A DNA stretch of 64,000 nt from NCBI GenBank assembly GCA_964637115.1, contig CAZWVL010000008.1:1-64000 (forward strand), read 5' to 3'. Below, piece after piece: positions 45,294 through 52,020 of this stretch. Below the pieces are notes generated by a model. The model searched no databases, was not told the origin of the DNA, and saw nothing but the letters and a program-made list of their open reading frames with translations. Every line of letters starts with the position of its first letter. The first letter of the stretch is position 1. Source of the stretch: an uncultured Methanosarcinales archaeon (GTDB lineage: Archaea > Nanobdellota > Nanobdellia > Woesearchaeales > ARS49). The position numbers were made by a program, and so were the translations under genes.

Positions 45294-45332
45294 TAAGCAT
45301 AAGAATAATCTAAAATAAGCATAAGATAATCT
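45294..45332. promoter_or_regulatory. Tandem direct repeats, candidate operator
   Basis: TAAGCATAAGAATAATCT and TAAGCATAAGATAATCT start 22 bp apart, upstream of a wHTH gene. Confidence 0.45.
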
Positions 45333-45379
45333 TTTTATAGACATAAAGATTAATATAGCAGTATACGAAATAGGTATAC

Positions 45380-45604
45380 GTGTTGAGTGAAAGACAACCC
45401 AGAAGGCACTTCAAGGAAATCAGGCAGATAATTCTACGCGACCTGCTAATGGGGCAGAGGACAGTCAATCAAATAGCTGAAAATACGGGATTAACCTGGC
45501 GCACGGTTGACAATCACCTCATCTATCTTTCTGGAAAAGGACTGGTTGAACCAGTATTTGTAAGCGAATACGTCAAGATTTACCGGCTGAAGGTGGCCAG
45601 ATGA
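45380..45604 (+). CDS. Small winged-helix (ArsR-like) regulator
   Basis: TVNQIAENTGLTWRTVDNHLIYLSGKGLV. Confidence 0.8.
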   Translation: MLSERQPRRHFKEIRQIILRDLLMGQRTVNQIAENTGLTWRTVDNHLIYLSGKGLVEPVFVSEYVKIYRLKVAR

Positions 45605-45829
45605 GCAAACTAAAAGTTCTCATGTTCGGATGCTCATCAAACCTTTGCAAAAGGTTTGATCTAAAGCACTCAAGCGGGATTTCCGCTGCGCTACAATCCC
45701 GCGACATGTCGGAAATGCTTTGCATTTCCGAGCATGCTCGGAAATCTTTGATTTCCGACATACCAAAAGCCGTCCCGGCCGCATGGGAGGCAAGAACATG
45801 AGCAAACTAAAAGTTCTCATGTTCGGATG
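45601..45829 (+). mobile_element. 165-bp multi-hairpin insertion flanked by a perfect 32-bp duplication of the GT4 gene start
   Basis: ATGAGCAAACTAAAAGTTCTCATGTTCGGATG at 45601-45632 and 45798-45829; four hairpins and a new GGGAGG RBS in between. Confidence 0.8.
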
Positions 45830-47015
45830 GGAATTCCCACCATTCAAATCAGGAGGACTAGGAACAGCATGCTATGGACTGACAAAAGGACTGGCGCGAA
45901 ACGGGTGTGAAGTAACATTTGTCATGCCAGTAACGCCAGAAGGAGCAAAAGCCAAGTTTGTGAAATTGGTTGGCTCTTCCAACATTGCAAGGAACGTCAA
46001 AATAAGAAAAGTCGAAAGTCCGCTGATGGCGTATATGACTTCATCATCTTATGAAGAACACATAACAATCAGCGGCAACAAGAAAAAACACGTCTACGGA
46101 AGAGACTTGTTTGAAGAAGTGCAGCGTTATGCAGCATTGGCAAAATACATTGCAAAAGAAGAAGAGCATGATATCATCCACGCACACGACTGGATGACCT
46201 ATCAGGCAGGCATAAATGCGAAAAAAGCCAGTAAGAAGCCGTTGGTTGTGCATCTGCACGCAACAGAATTCGACAGAACAGGAGAAAATCCAGACGACAG
46301 AATCAGCCACATAGAATGGCTTGGACTAAAAGAAGCAGACAGAATAATCACGAACAGCAACTACACAAAACAAAACATCATCAAGCATTACAAGATACCG
46401 GCAGAGAAGATAGACGTCGTGCACTGGGGAATTGATGATGTTGACGTTCCATCATTTGACACGCCTCTCAAAAAAGATAAGATAGTGCTCTTCCTGGGAA
46501 GAATAACACTCCAGAAAGGACCGGACTATTTCATAGAAGTAGCCAAGAAAGTTCTTACATACGAGCCGGATACGAAATTCGTCATTGTGGGAGACGGAGA
46601 CATGCTGCCACGCATAATTAATCGCGCGGCAGAACTTGGAATAACAAACAAAATCATCTTCACAGGTGCGTTGTCAGGAGACGATGTTCATAGAGCATTC
46701 AAGACAGCAGACATCTATGTAATGCCAAGCGTCTCAGAACCATTCGGACTTGTTGCACTTGAAAGCCTGAAAAACGGCACTCCAGTCATTATAAGTAAGC
46801 AGAGCGGCGTGGCAGAAGTGCTCAAGCACGCGCTTAAAGTAGACTTCTGGGATATTGATGAAATGACCAACAAGATTGTGGCAGTGCTCAGGCATCAAGC
46901 ACTCAAAGAGGAACTGAAAGAACACGGCATGCACGAAGTGCAAAAGTTCAACCTTGACGAGCCAGCACGAAAAGTAAGAGACACGTATCATCACGTCCGA
47001 GGTGAGCACGCATGA
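45798..47015 (+). CDS. GT4 glycosyltransferase (glycogen synthase-like)
   Basis: MFGWEFPP..SGGLG, HAHDWMT, FLGRITLQKG, MPSVSEPFGLVALE. Confidence 0.92.
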   Translation: MSKLKVLMFGWEFPPFKSGGLGTACYGLTKGLARNGCEVTFVMPVTPEGAKAKFVKLVGSSNIARNVKIRKVESPLMAYMTSSSYEEHITISGNKKKHVYGRDLFEEVQRYAALAKYIAKEEEHDIIHAHDWMTYQAGINAKKASKKPLVVHLHATEFDRTGENPDDRISHIEWLGLKEADRIITNSNYTKQNIIKHYKIPAEKIDVVHWGIDDVDVPSFDTPLKKDKIVLFLGRITLQKGPDYFIEVAKKVLTYEPDTKFVIVGDGDMLPRIINRAAELGITNKIIFTGALSGDDVHRAFKTADIYVMPSVSEPFGLVALESLKNGTPVIISKQSGVAEVLKHALKVDFWDIDEMTNKIVAVLRHQALKEELKEHGMHEVQKFNLDEPARKVRDTYHHVRGEHA

Positions 47016-48229
47016 CTGACGTCTGCCTCTACTTCCAAGTACACCAGCCATTCAGACTGGCACGATACACGCTCTTTGATATTGGAAAACACTCAAGATA
47101 CTTTGACGAAGCAAAAAACAAAGAAATAATGCTCAAAGTAGCGCGAAAATGCTACCTGCCAACGAACAGCATAATCAGACAGCTTATTGCGAAACACGAC
47201 GACTTCAAAGTAACGTACAGCATAACTGGAAGCGCGCTTGAACAATTTGAAAAATACGCACCCAACGTATTGAGAAGTTTCAAAGAACTTGCAGAAACAG
47301 GAGCAGTTGAATTCCTAACAGAAACAAGCAACCATTCACTCTCCGCGCTTGCGGATAAAGATGAATTTACTTCACAAATAAAAGAACACCAGAAATTAAT
47401 CAAGAATTACTTTGGACAAAAGCCCAAGATATTCAGAAATACAGAATTAGTTTACAATAATGAGATTGCCAAAACTGCAGAACAACTTGGTTTCAAAGGC
47501 ATACTCGCAGAAGGATGGGACTCAATACTAGGATGGCGAAGCCCCAACTACGTCTACAAGGCAGCAGAAACGCGCAAAATGAGATTGCTGCTCAAGAACT
47601 ACCGGCTTTCAGATGATGTGGCATTCAGATTCTCCAATAAACACTGGAACAGCTGGCCATTAACAGCAGAAAAGTACGCAGGATGGATAGCGCCCATACT
47701 CGGAGACAGCATCAACCTGTTCATGGACTATGAAACATTCGGAGAGCACCAATGGGAAGACACAGGAATATTCAACTTCCTCAAACACTTGCCGGCTGCA
47801 CTGAAGAAACACAACATAAGCTTCAAACATCCCAGCGAACTGCTGAAAATACGGCCAAAAGAAGAACTCGACATCCAGCAGACAATCAGTTGGGCAGATG
47901 TAGAAAGAGATACGAGCGCATGGCTCGGCAACAAAATGCAGCAAAGCGCGCACGCACAGATTTACTCAATTCGAAAAGACGTGCTTGCAAGCGGAGACAG
48001 AGAATTACTTGCTTCGTGGAAAAAACTTACGACAAGCGACCATTTCTACTATATGTGCACCAAATGGTTCAACGATGGAGACGTGCACAAATATTTCAGC
48101 CCATACGATACCCCATATGACTGCTTCATCAATTACATGAACATATTGCAAGATATGACGCTCAGACTCAAAAATAAACAAGGACTGTTTGAGTCCATTA
48201 AAAGATTTGTCAAAGAGGTGAAGTTATGA
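47012..48229 (+). CDS. GH57 family alpha-amylase
   Basis: FQVHQP, FRNTELVY, NLFMDYETFGEHQW, TTSDHFYYM. Confidence 0.92.
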   Translation: MTDVCLYFQVHQPFRLARYTLFDIGKHSRYFDEAKNKEIMLKVARKCYLPTNSIIRQLIAKHDDFKVTYSITGSALEQFEKYAPNVLRSFKELAETGAVEFLTETSNHSLSALADKDEFTSQIKEHQKLIKNYFGQKPKIFRNTELVYNNEIAKTAEQLGFKGILAEGWDSILGWRSPNYVYKAAETRKMRLLLKNYRLSDDVAFRFSNKHWNSWPLTAEKYAGWIAPILGDSINLFMDYETFGEHQWEDTGIFNFLKHLPAALKKHNISFKHPSELLKIRPKEELDIQQTISWADVERDTSAWLGNKMQQSAHAQIYSIRKDVLASGDRELLASWKKLTTSDHFYYMCTKWFNDGDVHKYFSPYDTPYDCFINYMNILQDMTLRLKNKQGLFESIKRFVKEVKL

Positions 48230-48603
48230 AACGAACAAAACAAAGACGCGTCAAATCAAAAATCAGGAAAACAAGACCTTCCCACAAGCCAAAAACAACC
48301 GTACACGTGACCATAACACGAAAAGTTTTAGGCAAAACACCGGAAAAATACAGTTTCAACCTGCCAGACGGCAGAAAACTGAGAAGCGTGTATGAACTGA
48401 TAGACGAATTAGAGACTATGAGTGAGGAAAACTTCAGGCATTACGTGACTGAAACAGAAAACCACTTTGCCAACTGGATAGAACACGTGTTCAGCGAAAA
48501 ACACCTGGCAAATGAACTGAGGCACGTAAAAAACAGGATAGACACGCAAAGAGCGATTTTGAAACATCTTGTAAGAGAACTCATGAAAAAGGCACACGCA
48601 TGA
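48226..48603 (+). CDS. DUF5752-like domain protein with basic N-tail
   Basis: F.L.DGRKLRSVYEL..EL..M....F.H.V....NHFANWIEHVF...LA. Confidence 0.6.
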   Translation: MKRTKQRRVKSKIRKTRPSHKPKTTVHVTITRKVLGKTPEKYSFNLPDGRKLRSVYELIDELETMSEENFRHYVTETENHFANWIEHVFSEKHLANELRHVKNRIDTQRAILKHLVRELMKKAHA

Positions 48604-49169
48604 ACTTACGCGACGTTCCGCCAGAAAATGAATTTGTACTAATCGGCGGAAGAAAAATCAAGAATATCGCTGAATTAGGCAGAGAACTCAGGCAGATGAG
48701 CGATGACATGTTCGCGCATCACGTCACGGAACAGAAAAACGACTTTGCCAACTGGATAGAAAAGTGCGTAAAGGATGAAACATTGGGAATATTAGCACGA
48801 ACGACAAAAGACAAGGAACGCATGGCAGCAATTGTTGAAAGAAGAATCAAAGAACTAACACAGCCAAAAATCATCAGAACCGCACAGCAGACAATGCAGC
48901 AGCCAAGCATTGTCAGAACAAAAAATGTGACCATGCTTAAGTTTGCGCACGAACAAATGCCTGCCATAACAAAACCTCAAAAGCAAATAATACACACACC
49001 GCACAAAACGGTGCTCAAACTGCAGCACGAACAGCCATTAAAAACTGAAATTTACGTTCACGAGGTTAACAAACACCACCACGGGGCAGCATTGCTAATA
49101 GCGCATTTAGTGCTCGGGATTGTCGTAGGAGTAGCAATCGCTGCCCTGGTGCTGGCGTTTAATACATAA
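48600..49169 (+). CDS. DUF5752-like domain protein with C-terminal TM
   Basis: F.LIGGRKIKNIAEL..EL..M....F.HHV....NDFANWIEKCV; C-terminal hydrophobic helix. Confidence 0.6.
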   Translation: MNLRDVPPENEFVLIGGRKIKNIAELGRELRQMSDDMFAHHVTEQKNDFANWIEKCVKDETLGILARTTKDKERMAAIVERRIKELTQPKIIRTAQQTMQQPSIVRTKNVTMLKFAHEQMPAITKPQKQIIHTPHKTVLKLQHEQPLKTEIYVHEVNKHHHGAALLIAHLVLGIVVGVAIAALVLAFNT

Positions 49170-49205
49170 CCTTTAAATGAATAAAAACAAAGAGGAAACA
49201 AAAAG

Positions 49206-50165
49206 ATGGTGTACGACGTTATCAGCGTAGGCGGAGCAAACATAGACGTATTCATCACTACAAAAAGCAAAGATGTAGAAATAGAAAAGATACACGCACA
49301 CGAAGACGTGTGCATGCCCATCGGCGCCAAAATACTGATTGATACGCTTGTTACAGATACGGGAGGCTCAGGAGTCAACACCGCAACAGCATTCGCACGG
49401 CTCGGCTTGAAAGCAGCAGTTGTCAGCAAACTTGGACAAGATATGAATGCGGACGTAGTTCTGAACAAATTAAAAAAAGAAAAAATAGATTTCCTTGGAG
49501 TGAAAGCAGCGGGACACACAGGATACTCTGTAATTCTGTCAGGACTGCACAAGAATAGAACGATTCTCACGTTCAAAGGCAACAATAACTTGATGACAAC
49601 AAAAGACATTCAATGGAAAAAACTCAAGACAAAATGGTTCTATTTTGGAACGCTGCTTGGACAGAGCTGGAAGACACAATGCGCGATTGCGCAATATGCA
49701 AAAAAGAACGGCATTAAACTTTTGTTTAACCCGTCACTCTACTTGGCAGAGAAAGGAATGAAATTCCTGAAGCCAATACTTGACGCGTGCACAGTACTCA
49801 TCCTGAACAAAGAAGAAGCACAGGCGCTTACCGGCATGAAGGGATATACCAAGCAAATCCTGGAAAGACTGCAGAAACACGTCCCTATCGTAGTCATTAC
49901 AGACGGACCAAGAGGAGCGCTCGCGTACAACGGAATCCAACACTATTCAATCGTTCCAAAAGACGTGCCAATTGCCGACACAACAGGAGCAGGAGACTCA
50001 TTTGCAAGCGCTTTCCTGGCAGCACTGATTGATGGACAAGACATTCCGACTGCTTTAAAATGGGGAGCTGCAGAAGCAAACAGCGTTATACAGCACTACG
50101 GCGCGACTAATATTCTGCTCAACAAAAAAGAAATTGTAAAACAATCAAATAACGCGGAGGCATAA
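49206..50165 (+). CDS. PfkB-family carbohydrate kinase
   Basis: GGSGVNTA and DTTGAGDSF signatures. Confidence 0.92.
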   Translation: MVYDVISVGGANIDVFITTKSKDVEIEKIHAHEDVCMPIGAKILIDTLVTDTGGSGVNTATAFARLGLKAAVVSKLGQDMNADVVLNKLKKEKIDFLGVKAAGHTGYSVILSGLHKNRTILTFKGNNNLMTTKDIQWKKLKTKWFYFGTLLGQSWKTQCAIAQYAKKNGIKLLFNPSLYLAEKGMKFLKPILDACTVLILNKEEAQALTGMKGYTKQILERLQKHVPIVVITDGPRGALAYNGIQHYSIVPKDVPIADTTGAGDSFASAFLAALIDGQDIPTALKWGAAEANSVIQHYGATNILLNKKEIVKQSNNAEA

Positions 50166-50166
50166 A

Positions 50167-51081
50167 ATGTTGGTAACACTCAAAAAAATCCTGAAAGAAG
50201 CAAACAAAGGCACGTACGCAGTCGGAGCATTCAACATAAACAACATGGAAATCGCGCAGGCAGCAATTAATGCAGCTGTTGCGCAGAAATCACCAGTCAT
50301 TCTGCAAACATCTGAAGGAGCAATTGCGTATGCAGGAACGGAATACCTGAAAGCACTCGCATATGCTGCAGCAAAACAAAAAGTTCCTGTTGCATTGCAC
50401 TTAGACCACGGACGAGACATGGATATTATCAAGAAATGCATCAAAGCGGGCTGGACCGGGATAATGTACGACGGCAGCCACCTGCCATTCGAAGAAAATA
50501 TCAAGAATACCAAAAAAGTGGTGCAATGGGCGCACAAGGCAGGCATCGGAGTAGAAGGAGAACTCGGCACAATCGGCGGAGCAGAAGAGAAAATCATTGC
50601 ACGCGAAATAGTCTACACTGATCCAGTTGCTGCTGTAGAATTTGTAAAGAAAACTGGAGTTGATGCTCTTGCTGTCGCAATCGGAACGTCTCACGGTGCA
50701 TACAAGTTTGAAGGAACAGCACGTTTGGACATACATTTATTGAAAGTCATCAAGGAAAAATTGCAGATGCCTTTAGTGCTGCATGGTGCATCCGGAGTAC
50801 CGGCATGGCTGGTAACGCAAGCAGTCAGATATGGAGCAGAACTAGGCAAGCCAGAAGGAGTGCCAGATGATCAGATACGCATTGCAGTGCAATCAGGAAT
50901 CAACAAAGTCAACACTGATACTGATTTAAGATTAGCTTTTGACGCCGCAGTCAGGCAGTTCCTGAAGGAAAAACCGTCAGACTTTGATCCAAGACACATT
51001 TTAGCGCCTGCGCGCACTTTAATGCAGCAGATTATCGAACACAGAATACAATTGTTCGGGAGCAATGGAAAAGCGTTATGA
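50167..51081 (+). CDS. fba: Class II fructose-bisphosphate aldolase
   Basis: LHLDHG, EGELG, AIGTSHGAYK, VLHGASG, KVNTDTDLR. Confidence 0.95.
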   Translation: MLVTLKKILKEANKGTYAVGAFNINNMEIAQAAINAAVAQKSPVILQTSEGAIAYAGTEYLKALAYAAAKQKVPVALHLDHGRDMDIIKKCIKAGWTGIMYDGSHLPFEENIKNTKKVVQWAHKAGIGVEGELGTIGGAEEKIIAREIVYTDPVAAVEFVKKTGVDALAVAIGTSHGAYKFEGTARLDIHLLKVIKEKLQMPLVLHGASGVPAWLVTQAVRYGAELGKPEGVPDDQIRIAVQSGINKVNTDTDLRLAFDAAVRQFLKEKPSDFDPRHILAPARTLMQQIIEHRIQLFGSNGKAL

Positions 51082-51198
51082 AATGCGTAGAAAACCAATA
51101 CAAAATGCACGCATTTCATAACGTGCTCGGAAATCGCTTTCAACAATCATCAAACCAAGAGGTGAATGGTTTCGCACATGCGATTTCCGACACGTGAA
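51076..51198 (+). mobile_element. Two-hairpin insertion between fba and cutA with TGAA duplication
   Basis: TTATGAAATGCGT/ACGCATTTCATAA (51076-51121); ACGTG-C-TCGGAAATCGC...GCGATTTCCGA-CACGT (51121-51195). Confidence 0.65.
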
Positions 51199-51508
51199 GC
51201 CGATTTTAGTATATATTACTGTGCCAGATGAAAAGGACGCGGAAATGATAGGCGCAGCATTGGTAAAGAAAAAACTAGCTAGCTGCGTGAACATTATTTC
51301 TAACATTCACTGCCAGTATATCTGGAAAGGAAAATTCCAGCACGATAAGGAAGCAGTAATGATGGTGAAGACTTTTGACACGAAATACAAAGCATTGGAG
51401 AAAGTCGTTAAGAAAATTCATTGTTATGAAAATCCGTGCATTGTTGCAATGCCGATAACAAAAGGAAGCAAAGAATATCTATCTTGGAGTAGGAGGGCAG
51501 TAAAATGA
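51194..51508 (+). CDS. cutA: CutA divalent-cation tolerance protein
   Basis: VYIT, LASCVNI, YIWKG, HCYENPCI. Confidence 0.92.
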   Translation: MKPILVYITVPDEKDAEMIGAALVKKKLASCVNIISNIHCQYIWKGKFQHDKEAVMMVKTFDTKYKALEKVVKKIHCYENPCIVAMPITKGSKEYLSWSRRAVK

Positions 51509-52020
51509 CTTTTTGGAGAACTTTAGAATATACACTAATCTGTATGCTTTTGTTTAGCGTAATACTCTCATTATCATTCATGGAAATACGCACATTTTTT
51601 ATCATAGTGAGTTTGCTTGCAGGACTGGTCTTCTACTATCTTTTCAAAGAAATGCCAACAGATGAAGCAATGCAAGAAATCAGCATTGTCTACATTCCAG
51701 CATCCATCGTGGTTATCATTGAAGGCATGTTTACAAATCTGATGAAATATACTATTGAAACGGCAGCATCATTACGACCCGATCCTCAAATTGGATCGCT
51801 TGCGACGATATTTGCACAAAGAAACATAATATTCGAGCTAATAGTACTTCTAGTCGGACTTTTCGGCCCATTCATAGCATTCAAGCTGTTAAAAGCCCAA
51901 CAAATAGAATACAAAAGACTTATTTGGAATATTGCAGCCGTATTCATCGCATACTTAATCGCCCTTCTTATTGTTACCTTTGTCATCATGCCCAGATTGA
52001 TAGGAGGAGCGCCATTATGA
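51505..52020 (+). CDS. Multi-pass membrane protein
   Basis: Several hydrophobic segments. Confidence 0.7.
   Translation: MTFWRTLEYTLICMLLFSVILSLSFMEIRTFFIIVSLLAGLVFYYLFKEMPTDEAMQEISIVYIPASIVVIIEGMFTNLMKYTIETAASLRPDPQIGSLATIFAQRNIIFELIVLLVGLFGPFIAFKLLKAQQIEYKRLIWNIAAVFIAYLIALLIVTFVIMPRLIGGAPL

What the first reader, a model, noticed from the sequence alone, without database searches (positions are those of the whole stretch)
45601..51198. Hairpin insertions at stop/start overlaps that carry stop-free 'relay' ORFs preserving translational coupling
Seen: two separate hairpin-rich inserts sit exactly at ATGA gene overlaps inside one operon. In the first (wHTH to GT4), an ORF starts at the original ATG 45601, reads 66 codons without a stop through the insert and ends on TGA 45799-45801, overlapping the regenerated GT4 ATG. 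In the second (fba to cutA), an ORF starts at ATG 51078, overlapping the fba stop, reads 39 codons (MKCVENQYKMHAFHNVLGNRFQQSSNQEVNGFAHAISDT) and ends on TGA 51195-51197, overlapping the cutA GTG. Displacements are 197 and 116 bp, both 3n+2, the one phase that recreates the overlap. The chance is 1 in 3 each, before also requiring an open frame. Inference: the palindromic element, or selection on it, keeps ribosomes coupled across the insert. This is reminiscent of, but different from, in-frame palindromic elements in Rickettsia and Methanocaldococcus.
Basis: partly seen in the sequence, partly recalled or inferred. Interest (0 to 1): 0.82.

Follow-up and report, generated by a model that had tools for sequence, protein, structure and literature searches.

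The report
Translated hairpin inserts bridging operon genes
In this small uncultured archaeon (Woesearchaeota), hairpin-forming DNA repeats have landed exactly where two operon genes overlapped, and the surviving copies nearly always carry an open mini-reading frame running from the upstream stop to the downstream start, which probably keeps the downstream gene translated, as proposed for the MIRU repeats of mycobacteria.

Summary
Both inserts are real insertions: ten (site 1) and three (site 2) genomes of the same genus have a plain ATGA stop/start overlap there. Two other species carry the same inserts, and both keep the bridging frame at the same length (66 and 39 codons).

The peptides are not conserved (dN/dS about 1). 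The nucleotides and stems are: about 0.2 divergence against pS 0.6 in the flanking genes.

Hairpin copies beside promoters are full of stops. An unbiased whole-genome comparison with a relative found 15 junction insertions, and 11 are translated end to end. Eight use a bridging frame and three run in frame into the downstream gene. About 4.8 were expected (P about 1e-4; 9 of 13 without the original two sites, P 0.0016). Eight further events in relatives are all bridged.

The 3n+2 rule is only one of several solutions. Four inserts are not bridged, and at least two of those bring their own ribosome site or promoter box.

MIRUs are a published precedent, so this is an archaeal, hairpin-built variant of a known idea. 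Translation itself is not shown. This scan has already reported Woesearchaeota hairpin repeats in other genomes, but not this bridging property.

The parts
45380..45604 (+). Upstream gene of site 1: small ArsR-type winged-helix regulator. Its TGA (45602-45604) overlaps ATG 45601.
   Evidence: ORF list. Pfam HTH_5, E 1e-5. Orthologues in 11 genus genomes end in the same ATGA overlap.
45601..45632 (+). Left copy of the perfect 32-bp direct repeat. This is the original GT4 start codon plus 10 codons, and it now forms the start of relay ORF 1. The ancestral Shine-Dalgarno AGGTGG lies just upstream.
   Evidence: the repeat finder D1, 100% identity, spacing 197. The empty sites of relatives have a single copy.
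45601..45801 (+). Relay ORF 1: 66 codons, with an ATGA overlap at both ends.
   Evidence: Kept open at 66 codons in the G001 orthologue despite 38 substitutions and a -1/+1 indel pair. dN/dS about 1.
45633..45797 (+). 165-bp insert made of four hairpin modules. Stems lie at 45636-45660, 45674-45702, 45709-45731 and 45741-45761. The last two are TCGGAAAT..ATTTCCGA modules joined by GCATGC. The insert ends with GGGAGG (45785-45790), 7 nt before the GT4 ATG.
   Evidence: Inverted repeats. RNA fold -96 kcal/mol, z -6.6. Absent from 10 genus genomes and present in G001, with compensatory stem changes.
45798..47015 (+). Downstream gene of site 1: GT4/GT5 glycosyltransferase (glycogen-synthase-like). 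Its first 32 nt are the right copy of the direct repeat.
   Evidence: Pfam Glycos_transf_1, Glyco_transf_4 and Glyco_transf_5. The N-terminus is conserved in relatives.
50167..51081 (+). Upstream gene of site 2: class II fructose-bisphosphate aldolase. Its last sense codon (TTA) and its stop lie inside the left arm of hairpin 1.
   Evidence: Pfam F_bP_aldolase, E 4e-105. Relatives end GKA* one codon earlier.
51078..51197 (+). Relay ORF 2: 39 codons, with an ATGA overlap at the aldolase stop and a GTGA overlap at the cutA start.
   Evidence: A homologous 39-codon frame is kept in G014, where the downstream gene is an rpiB-like gene instead of cutA.
51074..51123 (+). Hairpin 1 of site 2. It has 15-bp perfect arms (51074-51088 and 51109-51123), and the left arm contains the ATGA junction.
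   Evidence: the repeat finder I1. Compensatory T>C / A>G change in G014.
51127..51190 (+). Hairpin 2 of site 2, a TCGGAAATCGC..GCGATTTCCGA module. Its 3' arm ends 3 nt before the cutA GTG, so there is no free Shine-Dalgarno in front of cutA.
   Evidence: the repeat finder I2. Fold z -4.9. Compensatory C>T / G>A change in G014.
51194..51508 (+). Downstream gene of site 2: cutA.
   Evidence: Pfam CutA1, E 4e-34. In G004, G007 and G008 it starts on an ATG that overlaps the aldolase stop.

Best explanation
Lineage-specific hairpin repeat modules have been inserted at stop/start overlaps inside an operon. The modules include TCGGAAAT-loop-ATTTCCGA and several others, and they can be combined and nested.

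Each insertion duplicated the overlap. The duplicated stretch is ATGA, ATGAA or ATG at most sites, and 32 bp at site 1. The left copy therefore still ends the upstream gene and still offers a start codon. The right copy starts the downstream gene.

The copies that persist inside operons are those in which the frame opened by the left start codon stays free of stops across the whole insert. That frame either ends on or next to the downstream start, or runs in frame into the downstream gene.

The likely reason is as follows. A ribosome finishing the upstream gene re-initiates at once, melts the hairpins as it translates, and is delivered to the downstream start. This restores the termination-reinitiation coupling that a 40-200 nt untranslated, folded spacer would abolish.

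Shown:
- these are insertions;
- the stems are conserved at the nucleotide level;
- bridging frames are in excess and persist.

Inferred:
- the frames are translated;
- coupling is the selected benefit.

The enzyme that moves the modules is unknown.
For: Insertion:
- Empty ATGA sites occur in 10 genus genomes at site 1 and in G004, G007 and G008 at site 2.
- The hairpin motif has about 130 exact copies in 14 of 15 genus genomes, against 0 for the reversed control.

Persistence:
- G001 keeps 66 codons and G014 keeps 39 codons. The chance of staying open is 0.22 and 0.29 respectively.
- At site 1 a -1 and a +1 indel about 10 nt apart restore the frame.
- At the pdhB-pdhC junction, G008 and G004 share the outer stem but carry different nested modules. 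Their lengths differ by 6 nt, and both frames are open and end on the same stop at +8.

Constraint is on nucleotides, not peptides:
- pS 0.19 and pN 0.20 in relay ORF 1, and 0.25 and 0.27 in relay ORF 2.
- pS is 0.58-0.60 in the flanking genes.

Context dependence:
- Of 34 co-directional spacers holding the motif, 7 are bridged. All 7 lack a TATA box. The reverse-complement control gives 0 and shuffles give 0.57.
- Only 1 of 6 copies in 5' leaders has a frame covering the hairpin.

Unbiased whole-genome comparison of G000 with G006:
- 15 junction insertions: 8 bridged, 3 read in frame into the downstream gene, 4 neither.
- Expected 4.8, P 1e-4. Without the two original sites, 9 of 13, P 0.0016.

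Further independent bridged inserts at junctions that are overlapping or tight (about 10 nt or less) in relatives:
- G007 at pdh (20 codons);
- G003 (18 codons, ATGA..ATGA);
- G002 (24 codons);
- G004 (57 and 63 codons);
- G008 (62 and 84 codons);
- G005 and G014 (30 codons).

Rationale from experiment: in Haloferax volcanii, re-initiation falls by 60% at a 13-nt spacing and to zero at 22-23 nt (PMC10666635).

Precedent: MIRUs (PMC12548453).

Local detail: at site 2 the cutA GTG abuts a stable stem with no free Shine-Dalgarno.
Against: - There are no expression data of any kind.
- The hairpin modules are poor in stops in every context. In a 117-nt composite family, 3-5 of 6 frames are open per copy, including copies outside operons. 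Part of the openness is therefore intrinsic.
- Several bridged inserts are short (32-61 nt), where chance is high.
- Four of 15 junction inserts are not bridged.
- At site 1 the insert supplies GGGAGG 7 nt before the GT4 ATG, so GT4 could initiate on its own.
- My gene calls come from a home-made caller, and some class assignments (C4:138998, C7:77802) involved judgement.
- The genus genomes are related, and some events are shared by descent.
- A metagenome scan for more orthologues of site 1 found none.
Confidence: 0.62

Rival explanations
1. By-product. The modules are simply stop-poor because of their composition and palindromic build. The duplicated ATGA gives a start and a stop for free, and the bridging frames are neutral accidents with no effect on expression.
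For: - 3-5 of 6 frames are open in every copy of the 117-nt composite family, whatever the context.
- 3 of 6 and 2 of 6 frames are open in the two inserts.
- Short inserts are easily open by chance (null 0.33-0.67).
- dN/dS is about 1.
Against: - Even a null that conditions on each insert's own stop content and grants a start codon expects 4.8 where 11 are seen.
- In each long bridged spacer only one of the three sense frames is open, and it is the one set by the upstream stop.
- The reverse-complement control gives 0 of 34 against 7.
- The frame is restored after indels and after module exchange.
- Leader copies are not open.
Confidence: 0.17
2. Translation through the insert is selected, but not for re-initiation. 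Ribosomes may be needed to keep the folded spacer from triggering premature transcription termination or RNA cleavage (polarity), or to keep the downstream start out of a helix. The downstream gene would then start on its own Shine-Dalgarno.
For: - Site 1 ends with GGGAGG 7 nt before the ATG, conserved as GGAGG in G001.
- Several relay frames stop at -7 or at +5 to +10 rather than on the start codon.
- In the site 1 fold, the GT4 start region pairs with the left repeat.
- In-operon inserts lack the T-runs seen after copies at gene ends.
Against: - Many relay frames end exactly in ATGA or TAATG overlaps: site 1, site 2, C9:6878, G003, and the G008 84-codon frame.
- At site 2 no Shine-Dalgarno is free in front of cutA.
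- The two readings are not exclusive, and sequence alone cannot separate them.
Confidence: 0.17
3. The relay frames encode functional small proteins, or the spacers are eroded remnants of ordinary genes.
For: The frames are conserved in length in two species pairs.
Against: - dN/dS is about 1, with substitutions spread evenly over codon positions.
- A frame-shifted stretch between the compensating indels changes 9 residues with no loss of the frame.
- The peptides are read off hairpin arms.
- Most relatives have a direct ATGA overlap, so no gene was ever there.
Confidence: 0.03

Closest known systems
MIRUs (mycobacterial interspersed repetitive units; Supply et al. 1997, as summarised in PMC12548453 section 11 and PMC3184786 section 9)
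   Same: - Short dispersed repeats found between genes of polycistronic operons.
- Empty and filled sites, with a 4-nt direct repeat.
- Insertion at start codons.
- An ORF inside the repeat whose ends overlap the flanking genes (-4 spacing), read as a way to insert without disturbing expression of the gene.
   Different: - Bacterial (Actinobacteria) rather than DPANN archaeal, with no sequence relation.
- As far as I recall, MIRUs are 40-100 bp units often in tandem arrays. Here the inserts are nested combinations of several hairpin modules.
- Here the duplications range from 3 to 32 bp.
- The same modules also sit in promoters, 5' leaders and gene ends, where they are not open.
- Several phases and end positions are used, not only -4.
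Rickettsia palindromic elements (RPE) and other in-frame intragenic MITEs (PMC10969869 section 13; PMC3184786 section 15)
   Same: Palindromic repeats that survive in translated sequence because they carry no stop in the frame used. Three of the junction inserts here (C27:1900-1967, C4:74733-74808, C3:84220-84364 of the same genome) are read in frame into the downstream protein.
   Different: RPEs become part of a protein. The two inserts of this finding are read in a separate mini-frame that starts and ends on the neighbours' stop and start codons, so neither neighbouring protein is changed apart from one extra C-terminal residue of the aldolase.
REP / BIME / REPIN elements with RAYT (Y1 HUH) transposases
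   Same: Short hairpin repeats that often occur as doublets with fixed linkers, are scattered between genes and are co-transcribed with operons.
   Different: - No Y1 transposase domain was found in this genome.
- REPs are, from my knowledge of the family, extragenic and untranslated, and act on mRNA stability or termination.
- No bridging ORF rule is described for them in the papers read here.
Termination-reinitiation coupling at ATGA/TGATG overlaps (Huber et al. 2019 PMC6728339; 2023 PMC10666635), and short 'delivery' ORFs (PMC12548453)
   Same: This is the mechanism invoked. Overlapping stop and start codons pass the ribosome on, and a short ORF can serve only to deliver a ribosome to the next start.
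   Different: Those studies concern native gene pairs and leader ORFs. Here two such overlaps would be used in series across a piece of inserted repeat DNA.

Membership tests
MIRU-like coupling-preserving intergenic repeats (functional class) | Member of a dispersed repeat family | tested here: met
   - The TCGGAAAT..ATTTCCGA hairpin has 16 exact copies in G000 and about 130 across 14 of 15 genus genomes, against 0 for the reversed control.
- Other modules, such as TTCTCCCC..GGGGAGAA, have 8 copies in G000.
MIRU-like coupling-preserving intergenic repeats (functional class) | Lies between co-directional genes of an operon, with empty sites in relatives and a short direct repeat | tested here: met
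   - Empty ATGA overlaps in relatives at both sites.
- Direct repeats of 32 bp at site 1 and (A/G)TGAA at site 2.
- ATGA or ATG at other junctions.
MIRU-like coupling-preserving intergenic repeats (functional class) | An ORF in the repeat whose start overlaps the upstream stop and whose stop overlaps the downstream start | tested here: met
   - 45601-45801 and 51078-51197.
- In excess genome-wide: 11 of 15 against 4.8 expected.
MIRU-like coupling-preserving intergenic repeats (functional class) | The ORF is translated and downstream expression depends on it | not testable with these tools
   The organism is uncultured and no Ribo-seq, proteome or reporter data are held.
MIRU family proper (mycobacteria) | Sequence similarity to MIRU units, tandem unit structure, and a mycobacterial host | tested here: not met
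   - The host is a Woesearchaeota archaeon (taxon taken from earlier notes).
- The inserts are single, nested hairpin clusters and not tandem units.
- Similarity to MIRU sequences was not searched.
REP/REPIN-RAYT | A cognate Y1 (HUH) RAYT transposase in the genome | tested here: not met
   PF01797 has no match in G000 (98% complete), while the control genomes ring.
Rickettsia-type in-frame palindromic elements | The element is read in the frame of the host protein and becomes part of it | tested here: not met
   - The two inserts are read in a separate frame between the genes.
- The feature is met for three other inserts of this genome.
Known structured RNA family (Rfam) | Match to a curated covariance model | tested here: not met
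   There is no match in 45300-51600 apart from one chance hit at E 0.28 elsewhere.

The most novel reading that the evidence does not exclude
Woesearchaeota carry a class of mobile hairpin modules that has adapted to very compact genomes by being 'transparent to the ribosome'. In this reading the modules home to start codons and stop/start overlaps, and duplicate them. Their stems are built from stop-free words, so they can sit inside operons as translated relay cistrons, or in frame in N-termini. The host may then use the hairpin plus relay frame to set the ratio of neighbouring proteins. This would be a general, archaeal version of what was proposed once for MIRUs. It would also be a steady source of new micro-peptides and N-terminal extensions.
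Probability: 0.3. Interest if true: 0.75.

Novelty: new variant of a known kind. Interest (0 to 1): 0.6.

Why it matters
In genomes where about a third of co-directional neighbours overlap (307 of 890 pairs here, 178 of them by ATGA), there is no free space for a mobile repeat inside an operon. The data suggest a rule for how such repeats are tolerated: they must be read through by the ribosome.

That rule has three consequences.
- It provides natural experiments on the distance limit of termination-reinitiation in archaea. That limit has been measured only in Haloferax.
- It explains dozens of odd 'hypothetical' mini-ORFs that gene callers will predict in DPANN genomes.
- It extends an almost forgotten observation on MIRUs to a second domain of life.

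For annotation, these ORFs should not be called as protein genes.

Tried and rejected
- **Whole-insert copies.** BLAST of the two inserts against the genome to find full copies. Only short hairpin modules recur, so there is no full-length MITE family.
- **Strict ATGA..ATGA mini-ORFs genome-wide.** Apart from the two sites and C9:6878, the hits are real small genes: L39e-like, S27e-like, an RpoP-like zinc ribbon, and a membrane peptide.
- **Excess of relay stops at +1.** This first looked like a signal. It is largely explained by ATGA being common at gene starts, with 4 seen against about 3 expected, so I dropped that statistic.
- **Spacer length mod 3.** Over all structured co-directional spacers of G000 it is random (9/8/5). 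Most of those spacers contain promoters, so this test is uninformative for in-operon copies.
- **Metagenome scan.** A scan with the left junction of site 1 gave 23 hits, all chance matches in unrelated contigs.
- **Rfam.** Nothing found.
- **Y1 transposase.** Nothing found.
- **G014:C162.** It looked like a second copy of the site 2 element, but it is the overlapping end of the same locus.
- **Reverse complement as a control for openness.** It is imperfect, because palindromes read alike on both strands and the TGATG start is lost. I therefore added the phase-randomised null.
- **Not done.** I did not search the protein collections with the relay peptides, because that search can only find open copies.


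Full report
**Setting.** The window is contig C8 of a 1.27-Mb, 27-contig genome. Earlier notes of this scan assign it to Woesearchaeota, a DPANN archaeon. I did not test the taxon myself. The stretch is one plus-strand operon. In order it encodes an ArsR-type HTH protein, a GT4/GT5 glycosyltransferase, GH57, two DUF5752-like proteins, a PfkB kinase, class II aldolase and CutA.

**Observation.**
- Relay ORF 1 (45601-45801, 66 codons) starts on the ATG that overlaps the HTH gene's TGA. It ends on the TGA that overlaps the GT4 ATG at 45798.
- Relay ORF 2 (51078-51197, 39 codons) does the same between the aldolase stop and the cutA GTG.
- Site 1 is a 165-bp insert between two perfect 32-bp copies of the GT4 start.
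- Both inserts are strongly folded (z -6.6 and -4.9).
- They match no Rfam family.
- They are not copies of one long element. What recurs in the genome are short hairpin modules, above all TCGGAAAT-loop-ATTTCCGA joined by linkers such as GCATGC or GACATG.

**Are they insertions?** Yes.
- In 10 other species of the genus the HTH and GT4 genes overlap by ATGA, with a single copy of the 32-bp stretch.
- In G004, G007 and G008 the aldolase and cutA genes overlap by ATGA.
- G010, an unpublished genome, is one of the empty-site examples.

**Do the bridging frames persist?**
- G001 has the site 1 insert with the same 197-nt displacement and an open 66-codon frame.
  - Between the two species there are 38 substitutions.
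  - There is also a -1 and a +1 indel about 10 nt apart, which shift and then restore the frame.
- G014 has the site 2 insert with an open 39-codon frame, although the gene downstream there is rpiB-like and not cutA.
- The chance of staying open under that many random substitutions is 0.22 and 0.29. This is suggestive only.
- The stems show compensatory changes in both pairs.
- Divergence in the relay frames is pS 0.19-0.25 and pN 0.20-0.27, spread evenly over codon positions. The flanking genes have pS 0.58-0.60.
- So the nucleotides are constrained, or the inserts are younger than the species. The peptides are not constrained.

**Is the open frame specific to operon copies?**
- The exact hairpin motif occurs about 130 times in 14 of 15 genus genomes and never in the reversed control.
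- I fetched 57 of these loci and added the G000 copies.
- Of 34 copies between co-directional genes, 14 lie in spacers with an archaeal TATA box. Several more have T-runs or distant promoters. All of those have stops in every frame.
- Seven copies are bridged by a frame from the upstream stop to the downstream start. All seven are in GC-richer spacers without a TATA box. The reverse-complement control gives 0 and shuffles give 0.57.
- Copies in 5' leaders right next to start codons have such a frame in only 1 of 6 cases.

**The five new bridged loci.** All five are true in-operon insertions.
- Relatives have ATGA, GTGA, TTGA, TGATG or TAATG overlaps, or 9-11 nt spacers, at the same junctions.
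- Those comparisons turned up further inserts that were not selected for being bridged. All of them are bridged:
  - G007 at pdhB-pdhC (two small hairpins, 20 codons);
  - G003 (18 codons, ATGA..ATGA);
  - G002 (24 codons);
  - G004 at pdhB-pdhC.
- G004 shares the outer stem with G008 at that junction but holds different nested modules. The lengths differ by 6 nt, and both frames are open and end on the same stop.

**Unbiased test.**
- I fetched the whole of G006 (940 kb), called genes in both genomes with the same simple caller, and paired them by reciprocal best hits. This gave 868 pairs and 430 conserved co-directional neighbours.
- After removing start-codon miscalls, 15 junctions are tight in one genome and hold an insert in the other.
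- Eight are bridged by a separate frame, three are read in frame into the downstream gene, and four are neither.
- Of those four, one has a CCTCC..GGAGG hairpin that supplies a Shine-Dalgarno. One has a TATA-like box in its loop. One sits at a junction that already had a 9-nt spacer with a Shine-Dalgarno. One is unstructured and AT-rich.
- The null keeps each insert's own stop content, grants a start codon and randomises phase. It expects 4.8 translated inserts.
- The observed count of 11 has P 1e-4. Without the two sites of the finding, 9 of 13 has P 0.0016.

**Limits.**
- The modules are stop-poor in any context.
- Several inserts are short.
- The gene caller is home-made, and a few class assignments were judgement calls.
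- Related genomes are not independent.
- A metagenome scan found no further orthologues.
- Nothing shows translation directly.

**Mechanism.**
- In Haloferax volcanii, termination-reinitiation drops by 60% at 13 nt and to zero at 22-23 nt between stop and start (PMC10666635). An insert of 40-200 nt at an overlap should therefore uncouple the genes unless a relay frame restores an overlap at each end.
- At site 2 the cutA start abuts a stable stem and has no free Shine-Dalgarno. This fits a need for delivery by a translating ribosome.
- At site 1 the insert ends with GGGAGG 7 nt before the ATG, so independent initiation is also possible.
- Translation might instead, or also, prevent polarity or unfold the start region.
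- How the modules move is unknown. No Y1 transposase is present.
- The duplications always cover the start codon or the overlap. Some hairpins are built from an inverted copy of the target itself, for example hairpin 1 of site 2 and C10:11703-11812.

**Comparison with what is known.**
- The closest published case is the MIRU of mycobacteria. It is described as mobile, inserting at start codons so that an ORF inside the repeat is coupled at -4 to the gene, with little effect on expression (PMC12548453; PMC3184786).
- The present elements work like that but are not members of that family. The domain of life differs, they are built from hairpin modules, the duplications are variable, and several phases are used.
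- In-frame elements of the Rickettsia type match three other inserts of this genome, not these two.
- I found no paper on such repeats in Woesearchaeota.
- Earlier reports of this scan describe the hairpin repeat families in other Woesearchaeota genomes and in-frame copies in genes. The bridging-frame rule is not in the summaries I was shown.

**Verdict.** It is an archaeal variant of a known but little-studied idea.

Noticed in passing
G000 contig C10:11703-11812 (outside the window): A 110-nt junction insert consists of a GGACGC hairpin plus an inverted and then a direct copy of the upstream gene's last 12-13 nt (TCCTTGACATAT). Its loop holds a TATA-like CTTAAAAAT about 36 nt before the downstream ATG. 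This looks like an insert that brings a promoter instead of a relay frame, and it hints at a fold-back or template-switch origin.
   Followed up: partly
G000 contigs C27:1900-1967, C4:74733-74808, C3:84220-84364 (outside the window): Three hairpin inserts at former overlaps are read in frame into the downstream protein, as N-terminal insertions or extensions. One sits right after the MK of a signal peptide.
   Followed up: partly
L084 (G008), L086 (G004), L091 (G007): pdhB-pdhC junction: The same junction was hit at least twice independently. In G008 and G004 an outer stem (CTGCCGCG..CGCGGCAG) encloses different nested hairpin modules, so modules insert into earlier inserts.
   Followed up: partly
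window 51194-52020 and loci L014-L024: The gene after the aldolase varies within the genus: cutA, an rpiB-like gene, or a membrane protein. Each is joined by an ATGA overlap. The ORF 51505-52020 (171 aa) has no Pfam match.
   Followed up: no
genus loci L027-L083, e.g. L044, L040, L039, L083: In promoter-type spacers the long TCGGAAAT hairpins have AT-rich loops that read like TATA boxes (for example ATATAAAG, AATATAAT). A separate TTTAAATA or TTTATAAA box follows 25-35 nt before the start codon. The modules may carry or disturb promoters.
   Followed up: no
G000 C4:71140-71195, C1:130029-130093, C2:5564; L035, L036: Outside operons the modules often end on GACAT or CCGA directly abutting the start codon (GACATATG, CCGACATG, CCGATG). 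No Shine-Dalgarno lies between, so start codons may be a preferred target in general.
   Followed up: partly
G014 contigs C173 and C162 (L014, L025, L026): The assembly breaks inside the site 2 element. The two contig ends overlap by about 140 identical bases, which shows that these repeats fragment assemblies.
   Followed up: yes
L101/L110 (G004:C80): At a junction that overlaps in relatives, G004 has a 690-nt insert with its own TATA box and a small gene, rather than a hairpin element.
   Followed up: no
window 45601-45632 versus 45798-45829: The two 32-bp repeat copies are identical in G000. In G001 the left copy differs from G000 by 1 base and the right copy by 3, and the two G001 copies differ from each other by 2 bases. 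Meanwhile the rest of the insert diverged by about 20%. The left copy no longer codes for GT4 but is the better conserved of the two. This could reflect a constraint on the relay start region, or gene conversion.
   Followed up: partly
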